A stretch of 63,757 nucleotides of DNA, filler included, from Rhabdomonas costata (lineage: Eukaryota), in assembly GCA_019059605.1 (NCBI GenBank). It is 55 parts of 55 records of this genome, joined end to end, with 100 filler letters (N's around TTAATTAATTAA, not from the genome) between each part and the next. Parts side by side here need not be neighbours in the genome. Positions count along the whole stretch, not along the records: positions 30,199 to 31,259 come from JAHMHO010030715.1; positions 31,360 to 32,420 come from JAHMHO010030716.1; positions 32,521 to 33,572 come from JAHMHO010030717.1; 52 more parts are not named here. One strand, written 5' to 3'. Below are positions 31,256 to 48,761 of this stretch, in pieces. The notes beneath the pieces are model-generated. The model ran no database searches. It saw nothing but the letters and a program-made list of their open reading frames with translations, and was not told where the DNA came from. Made by a program: the position numbers and the translations under genes. Position 1 is the stretch's first letter. Each line of letters begins with the position of its first letter.

Positions 31256-31402
31256 CCCCNNNNNNNNNNNNNNNNNNNNNNNNNNNNNNNNNNNNNNNNN
31301 NNNTTAATTAATTAANNNNNNNNNNNNNNNNNNNNNNNNNNNNNNNNNNNNNNNNNNNNGGTTTTCTTTATATGAACTTTTAATAAATTATATACACAAA
31401 AA

Positions 31403-31698
31403 TTAAAATAAATTTTTTTTACCAATTTGTTGATTTCTATATTTTGGATGTGTGAATATATATTGTATGAAAAATACATATATGCCGCCTTCTAATAACT
31501 TCTTTTCTCCAATTAAATAACCTAGCATAAGAGAATTATCATTTTTGTAATAAAATAGTCCGTAATATTCGTCTGATGACAATAATTTTTTAATTTCTTA
31601 TAACATTTGTGTTCTTTGATAAATTTATAGAATTCTTATAAATTGTATTTGTTTGGATCTATTTTTATTATATTGTAATTTGTTGATTCATAGAACAT
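31403..31698 (-). pseudogene. GNAT acetyltransferase pseudogene on an AT-rich, virus-like contig
   Basis: EIKKLLSSDEYYGLFYYKNDNSLMLGYLIGEKKLLEGGIYVFFIQYIFTHPKYRNQQIGKK contains GNAT motif A. The N-terminal part (IYKNSINLSK) lies in another frame, and in-frame TAA stops are present. Confidence 0.7.
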
Positions 31699-31751
31699 AT
31701 ATAAATTATTATTAAATACGAAAACTTTTATTCTATATTTTTTCTATTTTT

Positions 31752-31978
31752 TCAACTGTTATTATCTCCCATTATTATATATTCTTTTTTATCTGTATCT
31801 GGTTTTTGTGTATTATTTATTTCGTTTGAAATTTTTTCTTGTAATACATCTAATATTGTTAAACCTGTAGATGGTAATTTATCCTTTTCTAATTCTTCAA
31901 TATATATATTGAATATATTCAATATATAAAGTTCATATATATGATATGATATATATTGAATATATATACATCATACAT
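31752..31978 (-). CDS. Small ORF with TGLTILDVLQ motif, interrupted by an inverted duplication
   Basis: Reconstructs as MYDVYIFNIYIEELEKDKLPSTGLTILDVLQEKISNEINNTQKPDTDKKEYIIMGDNNS* when the inverted insert is removed. Confidence 0.45.
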
Positions 31979-32015
31979 TGAATATATATCATATCATATA
32001 TATGAACTTTATATA
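31923..32015. repeat. Perfect 35-bp inverted repeat with 23-nt loop
   Basis: TATATAAAGTTCATATATATGATATGATATATATT (31923-31957) is the exact reverse complement of 31981-32015. Confidence 0.95.
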
Positions 32016-32054
32016 AACTTCTATTTTTTCAAAAACAGAAATTTACAGTTTCCT

Positions 32055-32307
32055 TCAAAACAACATCATCATACAATGCTTTTCTGAAAACGTACACGTA
32101 TTTACAGCAAATGCATCTTTCTGTAACACATCTAAAATTGTAAGACCCGTCTTTGTCGGAATCCGTTCTTCTCGTTTTGTGACTTCTTCCATTATTTCAA
32201 ATTGTTCCTCAATGAAATCTGATGATATTTTGGATATCAGTGGAGAACTCTGATGAAGAGTCGTCGGAATCCGGATCCGGACAACTATCCAAATTCAACA
32301 CAAACAT
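32055..32307 (-). pseudogene. Acidic small ORF with TGLTILDVLQ motif, probably frameshifted
   Basis: MFVLNLDSCPDPDSDDSSSEFSTDI / frameshift / SSDFIEEQFEIMEEVTKREERIPTKTGLTILDVLQKDAF...*. Confidence 0.4.
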
Positions 32308-32861
32308 TCGTTCTTCACACGTGTATTCTGTTCTGTTTGTTGGATTTTGACGTTGTAAAAATCAATTTTCAACATGATCGTGTTTTCCATGTTTGGTTTG
32401 TCTGACACCACAAACAACCCNNNNNNNNNNNNNNNNNNNNNNNNNNNNNNNNNNNNNNNNNNNNTTAATTAATTAANNNNNNNNNNNNNNNNNNNNNNNN
32501 NNNNNNNNNNNNNNNNNNNNTTTGTGTGGTGGAATGGATAGTCGTCTTTTTTTTCTGGGGGGGGGGGGGCGAGCCTCATACAAAAGCTATACTTTCAGGT
32601 GGTGCAACGAACAGGGTCCATGATGTCTTAGGACGCGGAACACAGCGGACTCTTGACCGTGAAGGGTGATAAACAGAGGATTGCAGTACAAAAGGGACTG
32701 AATTTTTTTTAGGTGCGAATGCCGTGACGTTGTTATACGTCTGACGAAATATAAGGACAACCGCTGCCCCCCCCTCACAAAATATGCTCTTGGCTGCAAA
32801 ATGACGAGGAAATGAAAGAAAACTCAGGTCAGCTCACAAACAAAAACGCGCAAGTCAAGAC

Positions 32862-41533: not shown

Positions 41534-41811
41534 AAGGCCAGCCGCCGCGTAAACCTTGCTGACGTTCTATTGGGAGCAGGGGGTTAGGTGCAGTTTTCCA
41601 GGTACCCTTGGCCACATTCATCTGGAAGCAGGCGACCCAACTAACCGACCTTTTTCGATGAACGAGGACCTTTCAACAATTCCTAAAAGCGCAAGCNNNN
41701 NNNNNNNNNNNNNNNNNNNNNNNNNNNNNNNNNNNNNNNNTTAATTAATTAANNNNNNNNNNNNNNNNNNNNNNNNNNNNNNNNNNNNNNNNNNNNTTGT
41801 GTGGGGGGTGG

Positions 41812-42040
41812 GAACAACACAGAGTGTGGACTACTTTGGTCCGTGCGTCAACTGCGCGGCGCGGGTGGAGGCCCTGGCCTCTGGGGGGCAGATCCTGATC
41901 TCCGAGGAGACCGCGGACATGGTAGCCCCGCTGATGGAACCCGGGGCGGTGCAGTTCGTGCACATGGGCTCGTTCAGCCTGAAGGGCATCGTAGCCTCAG
42001 TGGGGATTGTGCAGGCCGTGCCCACCCGACTCAGCCTCAG
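41812..42040 (+). CDS. Class III adenylate cyclase catalytic domain (C-terminal part), receptor-type-like
   Basis: VDYFGPCVNCAARVEALASGGQILIS...MGSFSLKGI has the N and R transition-state residues. The D of DYFG favours adenylyl specificity. Confidence 0.9.
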
Positions 42041-42961
42041 GTTTTGCTCTGCGTCTGACTGCGCTCTCCTCTTCACGGGGCGAGGCGCTTTTTTCTCATC
42101 CATGCAATTGAAGGTGTTAGAATTGTGTGGCCGATTGTGTTCAAAAAGAAAGCCGGCTCTCGGTAGGAGGAAGGTAATGCAACGCGTGCAGCGTGCAGAA
42201 GGAAAGAATGCAGGGTGGTGGTTGTCATCGATATTCTGCCATTTTAGGGACACGACGGGGGGCACTTTTCACACCGCCCAGGAAAAAATCCAAACACAGC
42301 ACAGCTTTAAGGGACCATACCTGCAGGGTGAAAATGAGGAAGGTCACGCTGAAGGAAGGGGGGGTGGGGTGGAAGTGGTAGCATTTCCATCCGGTTGATC
42401 CGTTGATGTGCGAGTTTGTTTTCCCCCTTGTATTATGGTTATGGTGGTGGTGCATCCACAGGGAGTTCCCCCCGCTGGCGCCAGCCTCTGTGGTGCTGGA
42501 GGAGCCCCGTCGTGACCCCGCGGGGTTGCAGATCTGCGAGAAGGTCCTCCCCCCTGCTGCCTTTTGTCCTTGTCGTGTAAACGAGGCACTTGGTTTGGTG
42601 TGATGGATGCCGGTGGCAATGCGTGCGCTACCTCAAGTCGGGCGTCAGCATCGGCGTTCGGTGCCGAGGCCGTAACAAGAATATCATGGAAAGCCTCTTT
42701 CTCAATGCATGAAGTAAGGATTGCACCTGAAACGATGGTACATAGCGCCGCAGCCTCCTAGGGCGAAATGTGAATAAAACTCGGAAAAGTCCTTTTTTAG
42801 TATGTCTGAGAAAGGTCCACGAAAGTCAGACAATCCTGACCCCCACCCCCCAAACCANNNNNNNNNNNNNNNNNNNNNNNNNNNNNNNNNNNNNNNNNNN
42901 NTTAATTAATTAANNNNNNNNNNNNNNNNNNNNNNNNNNNNNNNNNNNNNNNNNNNNGTTG

Positions 42962-43643
42962 GTGGGTGTAGAACAGCCCGGGCAGCCTGGAGTGCAGCCC
43001 CAGACGCTGCCGGGTCGAGGCCACGGGGAGGTCGGGGTCCCCAAAGGCAAAGTCGTCATACTCCGCGCGCTTCACGGGGTCGCTCAGGAGCATGTAGCAC
43101 TCGTAGATCTCGTGGAACTTCACCTTGGTCCGCCTTTTTTGATTTAGCAGCGCTCAAGAGCTAGGCAACTGTCCACCGTCCAGCGCTCCCGTGCTGAAAA
43201 GAAGGCGACAGAGTCTATTGGCCTACCAGGTGGCGTTCCCTTCCCAATGTGTAAGTGTTGATACAAATGAGTGGGATAGACCAGGGCAGCAGTTTTTTTG
43301 GTTCTTAGATTCGCGCGTTCTCCCCATTTTGTTTTTCAAAAAAAAGCAACCCCGAAAGAAAACCCCGGTTGAGGTTAGTCGCATCAGTGTAGCAGGAAGG
43401 TGGCCACACCTCTTCTCCTCGTCCGACTGGCTCTGGTGACGGTCGGGGTGGTACACGAGCATCAGCCGACGGTAGGCCTGGCTGATGGTGCGGGCGGAGG
43501 AAGACGGCGAGACCCCCAGGACAGCGTACAGGTCGGGAATGCACTGCCTTAGCGTGGACAGCATTGCCTGGGCCTCCTCGTGGCCCGGGTCCAGCTCCAG
43601 AATCCGCTCGCAGTCCTCAATCGCCAAGGCGTTCTCATTAGCC
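42962..43643 (-). CDS. TPR + DnaJ domain co-chaperone, exons 43643-43410 and 43133-~42962
   Basis: AIEDCERILELDP (TPR), then DLYAVLGV...AYRRLMLVYHPDR (HPD motif) and KFHEIYECYMLLSDPVKRAEYD. GTGTG donor. Confidence 0.9.
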
Positions 43644-44899
43644 CTACAGGATATGTCACAGCAATTTGGGGCGTACTTTTTCAGGCTGCGCTCGGGGTTT
43701 GGAAGTGGTAGGTCTTTGAGGGCAAAGCCCACAATTCAAGCACCCCCGCCCCTAAAAACGTTTTCTGACACGTGGTCTTATCCCAGACTACACAAAGGGA
43801 AAAAATTGTTTCATTCTTTTCGAAAACCCAGCAGCACAATCACAATGCGGGCTTGCAACTTCTTTGGGTTAGCAGGTGAATCAATTTCAAAGCCAAACTG
43901 AAGGAAAAAAGAGCAAAGAACCTGGAACTCCTGGAACTAGAACAGACCTAAACTGCAGACATCCGCCACATGCACACGCAGCTCAAAAGGTCACAAAAAC
44001 ACCAACCACACCCAACACNNNNNNNNNNNNNNNNNNNNNNNNNNNNNNNNNNNNNNNNNNNNTTAATTAATTAANNNNNNNNNNNNNNNNNNNNNNNNNN
44101 NNNNNNNNNNNNNNNNNNGGGGTTGGGGCTGCGAAGGACCCGAGACAGATGTGAAGATATAAAACGGCTGTGAGAGACACCCGAAGTGCTTTGGGGACGG
44201 ACAAAACGTCAGTTTTTTCTGCCGCGTGGTGACCATTGCACAGGAACAATTGTTTTTATCATTTCTGTGATGTCTTTCGTCTTAGGTGTCGTCATGTGTG
44301 ACTCCTTCATGCTGACGCTCATTCTTGCACCGCTTCTTCCAGTGCTTTGCTCGTCTTGGTTTTGCAGCAAATCGCGGGTCCCTGACCTCCGCAGACATCA
44401 CTGCAGCCATCTACGGCTTGGGAGCTCCCCAACGTCTCAGGTTTACTATTCTGCAAGTGACTTGTCGTGTTTCCGCACGTCCGGCCGGTTTGAATCGTAA
44501 AGAAGGATTGGCTGTAAAGTGAAGCAGCGCGAGTTCCAGGGCTCTGCTGCTGTGAGATTGCTACCGGTTTGAAAAACTTGTGTTTTTTTTATGAAACTGT
44601 AAAGTGTCTCGCAATGAACTTTGAGGTTTGGGGTTTTTGGGAACTTTTTGCTGACGCTGACCATTTCCCCCGAGGGAAGGAACCGGACGACATTGACACT
44701 GATTTAGTCCACTCTGAAGCCCGTGTCTTGTGCGGAGCGGAAAGATGTCTGACTTCTGTCGCCAGCAACCGCCATCTATCGCCATCTACCGGGGTCCCGA
44801 AACGGAAGCCGCTTACCCACCCTCGGGAGCCAAGCGTTGCCTTTGGGACATTTGGGATGCCTGGTATCAGCAAGTGTTGCCATCTGGATTTTTTATCCG

Positions 44900-47400: not shown

Positions 47401-48174
47401 TTTGATTGGCACGGCTGCCGGGTAGATATCGATTGGCGATGTAGCGGCAAACCGCAATGGACCTTACGGGCCCGAGACAGTATGCCTGCGCCCCCAAACC
47501 NNNNNNNNNNNNNNNNNNNNNNNNNNNNNNNNNNNNNNNNNNNNTTAATTAATTAANNNNNNNNNNNNNNNNNNNNNNNNNNNNNNNNNNNNNNNNNNNN
47601 GTGGGGGTGTTGCTCGGTCTTCTTCTCACTGTGCTGTTGCTTGGGCAATCCCCGAAGTGGAAATTCGTCCTCTATATCGCAGGGTGTGGCTCCTCCAATC
47701 CCCTCACTCTCTTTCAGGTTTGTTGTGCAACTGCGTCGATTTCAGAGTTGTGTAGCACAAGTGAAGGGAGGTGGATTCCAGACTGCACCCTTCTATTCTT
47801 CTTCTGGAGAATGCCTTTTCTATTTGAATTTGAGCTTAGGGGAAAGCGCACAAGCAAGCTGAAAAGTAGACTTAACAAGCGGAAGAAAAGGGGAAATTTT
47901 TCTACGAGGAACAGAGATTTCCCAAACACACTCTCACCTTCCACTGGTTCCTGGAGGAAGACGACCGTTTTGTTCCGTTCGGGATGGGGAATCAAGTTGT
48001 GTGACTATACCCCTTGCTTTGCTCTGCTGGCCCTGCAACCTGCATAAGAGCGGTGCGGAACTGTGCAAACCCCGGATATTCCAGGGCATCAATCGCGCAG
48101 CTGTACGACTCAAAATGAACGAAATAAAGACGCACGTACACAGGCGCACAAAAAAGAAGGGAGGGAGCACATAC

Positions 48175-48486
48175 CCAGCGTTGCGGTCGTCGTCGGTGTT
48201 CTCTTGCAGCTGACCAGGGTCCATCCCCAGGAACACCCCAGGCACAATTGGCATGCAGTCGCCGCGCAGCTTGCCCTCCGAGGTGGCGTACTCGGTGAGG
48301 CGGTGCAGGGGGACCAGCTTGCCCGGGTCCCGTGGGCCCCCCGTGAAGTAGTACGGGGAAGAGCCCGCGAGGGGCCGGTTGATCGCCACAGCCATTGTGC
48401 CAGACCGCGGGCAGTGCTCCAGCACGAACAGCACGGTGTGCGCGAAGAAGGGGTCGGTGCAAGCAGGATGGGCGACCAAGAAGCAC
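48175..48486 (-). CDS. YqgE/AlgH (DUF179) family protein exon
   Basis: FLVAHPACTDPFFAHTVLFVLEHCPRSGTMAVAINRP...YFTGGP...LH...IVPGVFLG; phase 2-2 exon with a GTATG donor. Confidence 0.85.
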
Positions 48487-48761
48487 CTGCGAATACCGGA
48501 GGGAGATGCATGCGGGAGGGGGAGGGGTGCCGACCAACCGGACAAGCCACCACCATAGGCTTGGGCCAACGACGTGTTGATGCCAGAAAACTCACGTGAA
48601 TTCCTCGGAACCAAGAAAGCACAAAAAAGCATTGCCTTCCATCCTTCGCTAGCAAGGAAAANNNNNNNNNNNNNNNNNNNNNNNNNNNNNNNNNNNNNNN
48701 NNNNNTTAATTAATTAANNNNNNNNNNNNNNNNNNNNNNNNNNNNNNNNNNNNNNNNNNNN

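What the first reader, a model, noticed from the sequence alone, without database searches (positions are those of the whole stretch)
31360..32420. Candidate decayed giant-virus (Mimiviridae-like) fragment in a euglenid assembly
Seen: this contig is far more AT-rich than all others (roughly 20-25% GC by eye). It has no apparent introns and holds three compact ORF remnants on the same strand. One is a GNAT acetyltransferase (IYKNSINLSK / EIKKLLSS..YG.FYYK....LGYLIGE..LLEGG.YVFFIQYIFTHPKYRNQQIG) broken by frameshifts and TAA stops. From memory, this IY.N...L...EI..LL.S...YL.GE...L..G..V..I.Y.....YRN..IG layout is that of GNATs in Mimiviridae genomes. Established: mimivirids infect euglenozoans (Bodo saltans virus), and NCLDV DNA can integrate into protist genomes. 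Inference: the multiple disabling lesions fit a decaying endogenous viral element better than a live virus or a bacterial contaminant.
Basis: partly seen in the sequence, partly recalled or inferred. Interest (0 to 1): 0.8.

Follow-up and report, generated by a model that had tools for sequence, protein, structure and literature searches.

The report
Eroded giant-virus-like DNA fragment
A 1-kb, very AT-rich contig carries a broken acetyltransferase gene whose nearest relatives sit in giant-virus genomes, so it is most likely a scrap of decaying giant-virus DNA of a kind already reported in Euglena.

Summary
The window is 55 joined contigs of about 1,061 bp. Contig 31360-32420 has 25.2% GC; the other 54 have 43-58%.

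Its minus strand carries a 64-codon GNAT core. The best of 53 matches among 1.84 billion proteins has E 2.6e-9 and 45% identity. These matches form a family of about 155 aa. The only members I could place are giant-virus ones:
- the GNAT of 'Mimivirus LCMiAC02';
- two GVMAG contigs;
- a 377-kb IMG/VR contig with mimivirid-type neighbours.

The gene is broken. In-frame TAA/TAG codons flank the core, there is no usable start, and a frame change is probable but only modestly supported. A ciliate-type code does not rescue it.

Upstream lie two short paralogous ORFs with no relatives, separated by a palindrome with 43-nt arms.

Integration into the host, the viral order and the identity of the host could not be tested. 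Giant endogenous viral elements with 25-37% GC and signs of erosion are already published for Euglena gracilis, assigned to Asfuvirales (PMC12455990). This is therefore a real but largely anticipated finding, and the 'Mimiviridae' label rests on one accessory gene.

The parts
31360..32420 (.). The whole AT-rich contig (1,061 bp, 25.2% GC). GC steps up at about 32060, from 14-24% to 34-41%.
31406..31597 (-). GNAT core: 64 uninterrupted codons (EIKKLLSS...YRNQQIGKKNLF). It covers profile positions 37-101 of a family of about 155 aa and includes the acetyl-CoA loop region (YRNQQIG).
   Evidence: In the covered part, 6 of 7 invariant or nearly invariant family columns are kept; the Arg of 'DGR' is Ile here.
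31599..31691 (-). Probable N-terminal piece of the GNAT, in another frame. It runs from the ATG at 31691 to TIYKNSINLSKNTNVI and carries three in-frame stops (TAA 31670, TAA 31667, TAG 31661). The frame changes near 31598-31600, and the piece is shorter than the family at this point.
   Evidence: 4.5 bits; 31 of 3000 shuffles reach it. The alternative, staying in the core's frame, is not excluded.
31360..31405 (-). Tail after the core, in the core's frame, with TAA at 31405-31403 and at 31390-31388. The contig ends before the C-terminal third of the GNAT (profile positions about 119-156).
   Evidence: 14 of 53 phmmer alignments pass the first of these TAA codons in frame.
31752..31901 (-). Short ORF A (IEELEKDKLPSTGLTILDVLQEKISNE...), paralogue of ORF B. 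It has ATT where B has ATG and ends in TGA.
   Evidence: Protein similarity to B scores 58, against 23.2 +/- 4.3 (maximum 44) in 500 shuffles.
31923..32015 (.). Palindrome with arms of 43 nt (95% complementary) and a 7-nt loop. It lies 39 nt after the stop of ORF B and 21 nt before ORF A. Hairpin energy is -54.9 kcal/mol.
   Evidence: (z -10.3; 0 of 200 shuffles fold as well).
32055..32192 (-). Short ORF B (MEEVTKREERIPTKTGLTILDVLQKDAF..., 45 codons, TGA stop). The frame is open upstream to 32294.
   Evidence: No relatives found.
32295..32420 (-). 3' end of a further open frame that runs off the contig (41 codons, TGA stop). No match found.
32362..32369 (-). One copy of AAAATTGA (mimivirus early-promoter octamer, motif recalled from memory), 54 nt upstream of an ATG at 32307. 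Not significant on its own.
   Evidence: 1 seen, 0.29 expected.

Best explanation
The contig is a piece of DNA from a large AT-rich DNA virus of eukaryotes (Nucleocytoviricota). It is no longer functional.

On one strand, with short spacers, it carries:
- the end of an unknown gene;
- two small paralogous genes with no known relatives, separated by a long hairpin-forming palindrome of the kind that marks transcript 3' ends in mimivirids;
- a small GNAT acetyltransferase gene.

The acetyltransferase has lost a readable N-terminus, has stop codons on both sides of its still recognisable acetyl-CoA-binding core, and is cut off by the contig end. It cannot make an enzyme.

The most economical origin is an eroding endogenous giant-virus element in the host nuclear genome, like those described in Euglena gracilis.

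Shown: the foreign composition, the giant-virus affinity of the GNAT, the lesions and the hairpin.
Inferred: integration into the host, the hairpin's role, and the viral order.
For: Composition:
- 25.2% GC against 43-58% in the other 54 contigs.

GNAT core and its relatives:
- 53 relatives at E<=1e-3 among 1.84 billion representatives; best E 2.6e-9 at 45% identity.
- Family profile scores the core at 64.5 bits, against 18.6 bits for Pfam Acetyltransf_7.
- Of the 30 relatives looked up, only one carries an organism name: 'Mimivirus LCMiAC02'.
- Of 5 relatives scanned in IMG/VR, 2 were found, both on giant-virus contigs. The other 3 were not found.

The giant-virus contigs that hold relatives:
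- They have 18-24% GC.
- They carry RFC, asparagine synthase, photolyase and AP endonuclease.
- They also carry topoisomerase IIA with an intein, DUF5767, DUF5901, an A22-type resolvase and a TBP.
- AAAATTGA lies 32-61 nt upstream of 6 of 15 and 6 of 13 ORFs.
- In L003, 11 of 19 inverted-repeat sites are centred in the 8.6% of DNA that is intergenic.

Erosion:
- Five in-frame stops and a probable frame change within about 111 codons.
- One nearly invariant Arg is replaced.

Literature:
- E. gracilis has eight giant endogenous viral elements at 25-37% GC against a host at about 51%, with signs of erosion (PMC12455990, Results read).
- E. gracilis is listed among assemblies holding NCLDV core-protein hits (PMC5294986, passages).
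- Mimiviridae polyadenylate their transcripts at hairpin-forming palindromes (PMC4402537, abstract start in the listing).
Against: - No hallmark gene (capsid, PolB, A32, VLTF3) lies on this 1 kb, and no host junction.
- The assembly and its reads could not be searched, so integration is not shown.
- The viral signal is one accessory gene of a superfamily that moves between genomes.
- 29 of the 30 relatives looked up are unnamed metagenome proteins. The two contexts of the best hit are 1.3-2 kb and show only a metallophosphoesterase-like neighbour by eye.
- ORFs A and B have no relatives anywhere.
- The core has no stop in 64 codons and keeps 6 of 7 conserved positions, so decay is not uniform.
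- AT-rich palindromes arise easily in any AT-rich DNA.
- That the host is a euglenid is unverified.
Confidence: 0.6

Rival explanations
1. The DNA is not integrated. It comes from a free giant virus, or from another AT-rich organism, that was present in the culture or sample and was co-assembled.
For: The contig has no host-like flank. No coverage or read-pair data could be obtained. The GNAT's relatives are all environmental sequences.
Against: A replicating virus would not be expected to carry five in-frame stops and a lost start in one small gene. The related giant-virus loci have intact GNAT genes and compact intact neighbours. Low-GC endogenous elements are documented in E. gracilis (PMC12455990).
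Confidence: 0.2
2. The genes are intact, but the source organism reads TAA/TAG as an amino acid. An example would be a ciliate-like contaminant, or a virus of such a host.
For: All four stops in the 109-codon frame around the core are TAA and disappear under table 6. 17 of 53 phmmer alignments pass the upstream TAA codons in frame, and 14 of 53 pass the first downstream TAA. The three upstream ORFs all end in TGA.
Against: - Table 6 lengthens all six frames alike; the longest are 97, 110, 69, 79, 109 and 179 codons.
- The Pfam alignment does not grow when the stops are read through.
- The read-through frame has no ATG before the conserved N-terminal block.
- The read-through N-terminal peptide scores no better than chance: 1.6 bits, reached by 657 of 3000 shuffles.
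- The related giant-virus loci end 41 of 45 ORFs in TAA and none in TGA, so the family's bearers use TAA as a stop.
- TGA is the commonest stop triplet in all three minus-strand frames of 31890-32420, so the TGA ends are not special.
Confidence: 0.05
3. The DNA is plastid or mitochondrial. Euglenid plastid genomes are recalled to be about 26% GC.
For: Only the base composition.
Against: No tRNA. No Rfam family at gathering score. No organelle-type gene. The only recognisable gene is a GNAT whose placeable relatives are on giant-virus contigs.
Confidence: 0.02
4. It is a host or repeat-derived AT-rich region unrelated to any virus. The GNAT would then be an old horizontally acquired or cellular gene remnant, and the palindrome a foldback-type repeat.
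For: GNAT genes are widespread. The family's profile also matches cellular N-terminal acetyltransferases (Naa50, ARD1) at E about 1e-10. The palindrome region is also a low-complexity AT tract.
Against: The core matches the giant-virus-associated family far better than generic GNAT models (64.5 against 18.6 bits). A GC 18-33 points below every other contig is hard to reach in place. The compact same-strand gene layout with a hairpin between genes resembles the related viral loci.
Confidence: 0.1

Closest known systems
Giant endogenous viral elements (GEVEs) of Euglena gracilis (Jivaji et al., J Virol 2025, PMC12455990; Results and Methods read)
   Same: Low-GC islands (25-37%; one element, CP87_12, at 25.4%) in a host of about 51% GC. 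Signs of erosion. About half of the genes have no match. The contig's 25.2% GC, broken gene and unmatched ORFs fit this description.
   Different: Those elements were placed in Asfuvirales by marker trees. This contig's only informative gene finds its placeable relatives on mimivirid-like contigs. The paper's main text does not mention an acetyltransferase (0 occurrences); its supplements could not be seen. I could not test whether this contig lies in one of those elements, or even whether it comes from that species.
Small GNAT family of giant-virus metagenome genomes (e.g. QBK89318.1 of 'Mimivirus LCMiAC02'; genes on GVMAG-M-3300020187-22, GVMAG-M-3300004277-10 and IMGVR_UViG_3300035703_001659)
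   Same: Same block order: IY.NF..L / H...I..LL.S / GYL.GE...L.DGR.V.FI.Y.Y....YR...IG. 35-45% identity over the core to the placeable members (43% to P0006, 35% to P0012, 37% to P0030; 45% to the unplaced best hit P0003). Same very AT-rich coding.
   Different: The window's copy is interrupted and truncated, lacks the conserved Arg of DGR, and has no relative above 49% identity.
Hairpin-type transcript ends of Mimiviridae (PMC4402537, abstract start seen in the listing; the original 'hairpin rule' paper is recalled, not read)
   Same: A strong palindrome sits in the spacer just after a stop codon and before the next gene on the same strand. The related viral loci show inverted repeats concentrated in their spacers.
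   Different: The arms, at 43 nt, are longer than any of the 40 inverted repeats listed for the two related loci, whose longest is 40 nt at 75% complementarity. No transcript data exist. No hairpin follows ORF A.
N-terminal acetyltransferases Naa50 / ARD1 (PDB 6yzz, 4pv6) and RimI-type GNATs
   Same: The family profile matches them at E about 1e-10. Members hit TIGR01575 rimI weakly. They share the GNAT fold and the acetyl-CoA loop.
   Different: All scores are far below the equivalog cut-offs (29.8-33.1 against 86.4 bits for rimI). No substrate can be inferred. The window's copy is not functional in any case.

Membership tests
GNAT acetyltransferase superfamily | Significant match to a GNAT profile | tested here: inconclusive
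   The fragment alone is below Pfam's cut-offs: Acetyltransf_7 18.6 against 27 bits, Acetyltransf_1 15.3 against 20.7. Its full-length relatives pass: P0012 scores 45.6 bits against Acetyltransf_1. The fragment matches them at up to E 2.6e-9.
GNAT acetyltransferase superfamily | Acetyl-CoA loop (R/Q-x-x-G-x-G/A; motif recalled) after strand 4 | tested here: met
   YRNQQIG aligns with the family's YR..GIG. The Arg and the second Gly, invariant or nearly invariant in the family, are kept. The first Gly is also absent in the closest relatives.
GNAT acetyltransferase superfamily | Complete domain of about 150 aa in one reading frame | tested here: not met
   Only profile positions 37-101 of 156 are in one open frame. 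Stops lie on both sides, and the contig ends before the C-terminal third.
Giant-virus small GNAT family (about 155 aa) | Best matches and block order are those of the family | tested here: met
   64.5 bits to the profile of 49 family members; alignment.
Giant-virus small GNAT family (about 155 aa) | The family is specific to Nucleocytoviricota | tested here: inconclusive
   1 of 30 members looked up carries an organism name, and it is a mimivirid MAG. 2 of 5 scanned are on giant-virus contigs. A strict DNA pattern found 4 sites in 185,579 prokaryote genomes, and none of the 4 encodes a member. That pattern also missed a known viral member, so the control is weak.
Endogenous giant viral element (GEVE) | Composition distinct from the host | tested here: met
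   25.2% GC against 43-58%.
Endogenous giant viral element (GEVE) | Nucleocytoviricota hallmark genes in the region | not testable with these tools
   None lies on this 1,061-bp contig. The assembly is not held.
Endogenous giant viral element (GEVE) | Physical continuity with host chromosomal DNA | not testable with these tools
   There is no junction in the contig. No reads or assembly were available.
Endogenous giant viral element (GEVE) | Erosion of genes | tested here: met
   Five in-frame stops, a lost start and a probable frame change in the GNAT. ORF A has ATT where its paralogue has ATG.
Imitervirales / Mimiviridae origin | Placement by marker-gene phylogeny | not testable with these tools
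   No marker gene is on the contig.
Imitervirales / Mimiviridae origin | Hairpin after genes and AAAATTGA upstream of genes (both features recalled) | tested here: inconclusive
   One strong hairpin lies after ORF B and none after ORF A. One AAAATTGA is seen where 0.29 is expected.
Asfuvirales GEVEs of E. gracilis | Sequence lies within one of the eight published elements | not testable with these tools
   The chromosome assembly named in PMC12455990 is not in any collection I could search.

The most novel reading that the evidence does not exclude
The fragment descends from a mimivirid (Imitervirales) virus. That would be a second giant-virus lineage, distinct from the Asfuvirales elements already published, that has left DNA in a euglenid nuclear genome. 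Euglenids, like the kinetoplastid Bodo, would then have been hosts of mimivirids.
Probability: 0.2. Interest if true: 0.5.

Novelty: new member of a known kind. Interest (0 to 1): 0.25.

Why it matters
If this is a euglenid assembly, the contig is one more trace of past giant-virus contact in a lineage where such traces were first characterised in 2025. Its only added value is a hint. The one informative gene points to mimivirid-like relatives, not asfarvirus-like ones. That could mean a second viral lineage in euglenid genomes, or only that this accessory gene is shared among orders. A 1-kb fragment cannot decide this.

For annotation, contigs like this should be flagged as virus-derived. They should not be called host genes, and they should not be discarded as bacterial contamination.

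Tried and rejected
- Close relatives of the fragment. None was found in IMG/VR (47 pattern matches, none confirmed), in phage genomes by blastn, or in the 90%-clustered protein collection among longer proteins (23 candidates, none at E<=0.001).
- Profile search with the family alignment. It returned 19 proteins, none with an organism name.
- Family alignment as an IMG/VR query.
- ORFs A and B. No word-sharing candidate. No Atlas hit. PDB matches only at E>=0.27. PHROGs gave one family of unknown function for A at E 5.6e-4 and nothing for B. Pfam gave nothing below E 0.08.
- Degenerate DNA pattern for the motif shared by A and B. It found one IMG/VR site. That site is antisense inside a 1,608-aa ORF and encodes G-F-T-I-F, not G-L-T-I-L, so it is a chance match.
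- AlphaFold model of ORF B with A as the only other row. Mean pLDDT was 63.6 and pTM 0.27. I did not fold-search it because the model is too poor.
- Rfam on the contig. Only sub-threshold microRNA-model matches to the AT hairpin (22-30 bits against gathering scores of 75-100). Not meaningful.
- Host identity. A recalled euglenid spliced-leader motif gave 0 matches in the window, and Rfam on the whole window gave 0 matches. Other contigs carry eukaryote-type gene pieces: an adenylate cyclase domain, DnaJ and an AlgH-like domain. Nothing is diagnostic of a euglenid.
- Tools not available. No whole assembly. No sequencing-run search. The records behind the viral loci are not held. Earlier notes of this scan returned nothing.
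- TGA as sole stop. Considered because three ORFs end in TGA. Rejected because TGA outnumbers TAA in every minus-strand frame of that part of the contig.
Full report
WHAT THE WINDOW IS

The 63,757-base window is not one locus. It is 55 contigs of 1,052-1,065 bp joined by N...TTAATTAATTAA...N spacers. The finding covers exactly one of them, 31360-32420 (1,061 bp).

Its GC content is 25.2%. The other 54 contigs range from 43.0% to 58.0%, so the compositional outlier is real. Inside the contig there is a step: 31360-32060 runs at 14-24% GC per 100 bp, and 32060-32420 at 34-41%. Anything that needs other contigs, coverage or reads was therefore out of reach.

THE ACETYLTRANSFERASE

All recognisable features lie on the minus strand. 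The longest open stretch in the relevant frame is 64 codons (31403-31597 including its stop; EIKKLLSS...GYLIGE...YVFFIQYIFTHPKYRNQQIGKKNLF).

Evidence that this is a GNAT:
- Pfam sees it only weakly: Acetyltransf_7 at E 0.0025 and 18.6 bits against a cut-off of 27; Acetyltransf_1 at 15.3 against 20.7.
- A feature search in the ESM Atlas pointed to GNAT clusters at 0.90-0.94.
- The decisive search was phmmer against 1.84 billion representatives. It gave 53 proteins at E<=1e-3 and none at 1e-10. The best hit has E 2.6e-9 and 45% identity. Nearly all hits are 150-170 aa.

A profile of 49 of the hits scores the window's core at 64.5 bits over profile positions 37-101. The profile was built from proteins found with this query, so the score is somewhat favoured, but the gap to the generic Pfam scores is large. 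In the covered stretch the fragment keeps 6 of the 7 invariant or nearly invariant columns. The Arg of 'DGR' is Ile.

WHERE THAT FAMILY LIVES

Thirty family clusters were looked up.
- Only one carries an organism name: QBK89318.1, the GNAT of 'Mimivirus LCMiAC02'. This MAG appears in a deep-sea giant-virus paper (PMC6401483, search listing only).
- Five carry only generic JGI names (RimI-like or GNAT superfamily).
- The rest are unnamed metagenome proteins.

Five members were scanned in IMG/VR. P0012 lies on two giant-virus MAG contigs (L001, L002) and P0030 on a 377-kb viral contig (L003). P0003, P0025 and P0018 were not found.

Properties of these three loci:
- They have 18-24% GC.
- L001 carries RFC, asparagine synthase, photolyase, a family-2 AP endonuclease and ClpP beside the GNAT.
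- L003 carries a topoisomerase IIA with an intein, DUF5767, DUF5901, an A22-type resolvase and a TBP. By my recollection this gene set is typical of mimivirids.
- In L001 and L002 the octamer AAAATTGA (mimivirus early-promoter motif, recalled) lies 32-61 nt upstream of 6 of 15 and 6 of 13 ORFs.

The best hit's own contexts are only 1.3-2 kb and add nothing. A profile search of the 90%-clustered collection gave 19 proteins with no organism names.

As a rough control, a strict DNA pattern for the GYL.GE...L.DGR block found four sites in 185,579 prokaryote genomes. None of them encodes a family member. The same pattern recovered only the two GVMAG loci in IMG/VR and missed L003, so this control is weak.

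In sum, every member that can be placed is on giant-virus DNA of mimivirid type, but most members cannot be placed.

HOW BROKEN IS THE GENE?

In the core's own frame, a TAA stands directly before EIKK (31600-31598). Two TAA follow the core (31405-31403 and 31390-31388). The contig then ends, before the last third of the domain.

Upstream there are two readings.
Another frame offers an ATG at 31691 followed by ...TIYKNSINLSKNTNVI, which matches the family's IY.NF..L block. It scores 4.5 bits, and 31 of 3000 composition-matched shuffles reach that score. It contains TAA, TAA and TAG in frame. It needs a frame change near 31598-31600, and it is shorter than the family there.
- Same frame throughout. 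This reading keeps the family's spacing, and 17 of 53 phmmer alignments extend that way. But the peptide scores at chance level: 1.6 bits, reached by 657 of 3000 shuffles. It crosses two TAA and has no ATG before the conserved N-terminal block.

Downstream, 14 of 53 alignments pass the first TAA in frame. Those are therefore nonsense codons, not a frame change.

Either way the gene cannot be translated into a GNAT domain. The minimum damage is four or five in-frame stops, loss of a usable start or a frame change, and loss of one conserved Arg.

The core is not random sequence. Its frame has 28 stops in 353 codons, so a 64-codon gap has a chance of roughly 0.005 (my arithmetic).

ANOTHER GENETIC CODE?

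Under table 6 (TAA/TAG = Gln) the core's frame opens to 109 codons.

Evidence against this reading:
- All six frames lengthen alike under table 6; the longest are 97, 110, 69, 79, 109 and 179 codons. This is expected for DNA at 20% GC.
- The Pfam alignment does not grow when the stops are read through.
- The read-through frame lacks a start codon before the N-terminal block.
- The related giant-virus loci end 41 of 45 ORFs in TAA, 4 in TAG and none in TGA, so the bearers of this family use TAA as a stop.

The three upstream ORFs of the contig all end in TGA, which looked suggestive. However, TGA is the commonest stop triplet in every minus-strand frame of 31890-32420. I give the alternative-code reading about 5%.

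THE REST OF THE CONTIG

Upstream of the GNAT on the same strand lie two short ORFs.
- ORF B: 32055-32192, MEEVTKREERIPTKTGLTILDVLQKDAF..., 45 codons.
- ORF A: 31752-31901, IEELEKDKLPSTGLTILDVLQEKISNE....

They are paralogues. Their local protein score is 58, against 23.2 +/- 4.3 (maximum 44) in 500 shuffles. Within TGLTILDVLQ all nucleotide differences are synonymous. That argues for past coding constraint (read off the sequence), although the opposite strand shares the same wobble positions. A has ATT where B has ATG. Of the 16 differences between them, 9 go from G/C in B to A/T in A. A therefore looks like the more decayed copy.

Neither ORF has any relative. A two-row AlphaFold model was poor (pLDDT 63.6).

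Between them lies a palindrome with 43-nt arms, 95% complementary, and a 7-nt loop (31923-32015). It folds at -54.9 kcal/mol with z -10.3, and none of 200 shuffles folds as well. It starts 39 nt after B's stop.

In Mimiviridae, transcripts are polyadenylated at hairpin-forming palindromes (PMC4402537, abstract start in the listing). In L003, 11 of 19 inverted-repeat sites are centred in the 8.6% of DNA that is intergenic. The hairpin therefore fits a mimivirid-style transcript end. This is a resemblance and not a test. AT-rich spacers make palindromes easily, and no hairpin follows ORF A.

One AAAATTGA lies at 32362-32369, 54 nt before an ATG at 32307, where 0.29 copies are expected. This is not significant.

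The contig has no tRNA and no Rfam family, which speaks against an organelle.

COMPARISON WITH WHAT IS KNOWN

A 2025 paper reports eight giant endogenous viral elements in Euglena gracilis (PMC12455990; Results and Methods read). Its main points:
- The elements are 86-311 kb long.
- They have 25-37% GC against a host at about 51%.
- They show erosion by duplication and mobile elements.
- About half of their genes are unannotated.
- They carry heavy cytosine methylation.
- Marker trees place them in Asfuvirales.
- One element (CP87_12, 25.4% GC) shares under 50% amino-acid identity with the others and is suggested to derive from a distinct lineage.
- Twenty-eight candidate regions were found before curation.

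A 2017 survey already listed the E. gracilis assembly among those with NCLDV core-protein hits (PMC5294986, passages).

If the window is from E. gracilis, the simplest reading is that this contig is a shard of one of these low-GC regions. I could not verify the host. The other contigs' GC fits, and they carry eukaryote-type gene pieces, but nothing diagnostic was found.

VERDICT

'Giant-virus-like and decayed' stands. 'Endogenous' is plausible but untested. 'Mimiviridae-like' rests on one accessory gene and on two soft regulatory resemblances, and it sits beside a literature that places the known Euglena elements in another order.

I rate this as a new member of a known kind, with low to moderate interest. 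The boldest reading still open is that a mimivirid lineage, separate from the published asfarvirus-like elements, also left DNA in a euglenid genome. I put that at about 0.2.

Noticed in passing
window 1-63757: The window is a chain of 55 separate contigs, each about 1,061 bp, joined by N/TTAATTAATTAA spacers. Neighbouring 'regions' are therefore not physically linked. No other contig is below 43% GC.
   Followed up: yes
window 32050-32420 versus 31360-32050: GC steps from 14-24% to 34-41% inside the contig. The richer part holds ORF B and the poorer part holds its paralogue ORF A. 9 of the 16 differences between them run from G/C in B to A/T in A.
   Followed up: partly
window 32295-32297, 32055-32057, 31752-31754 (minus strand): Three successive minus-strand ORFs all end in TGA, whereas 41 of 45 ORFs in the related giant-virus loci end in TAA and none in TGA. 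TGA is, however, the commonest stop triplet in all frames of this part of the contig, so I read nothing into it.
   Followed up: yes
window 32362-32369 and 32307 (minus strand): One AAAATTGA lies 54 nt before an ATG that opens a 32-codon frame overlapping the open frame of ORF B. If this motif were a promoter, ORF B may once have started here and since changed frame. One copy was seen where 0.29 is expected.
   Followed up: partly
window 31369-31387 and 31999-32017: A 19-nt copy (17 of 19 identical) of the outer end of the palindrome arm lies near the left end of the contig, just after GNAT homology stops. It is at chance level for this composition. It could also mean that the contig breaks at another copy of the repeat.
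   Followed up: no
L003:2884-7920: The giant-virus contig that holds a family member encodes a topoisomerase IIA interrupted by an intein (Hint and homing-endonuclease domains).
   Followed up: no
L004:6942-6968: The only IMG/VR match to the degenerate pattern for the motif shared by ORFs A and B lies antisense inside a 1,608-aa ORF of a giant-virus MAG, and it encodes Phe where the motif has Leu. It is a chance match.
   Followed up: yes
window 41799-42398, 43223-43735, 47934-48659: Other contigs carry pieces of an adenylate/guanylate cyclase domain, a DnaJ domain and an AlgH-like domain. This is consistent with a eukaryotic nuclear genome, with exon-sized open stretches.
   Followed up: partly
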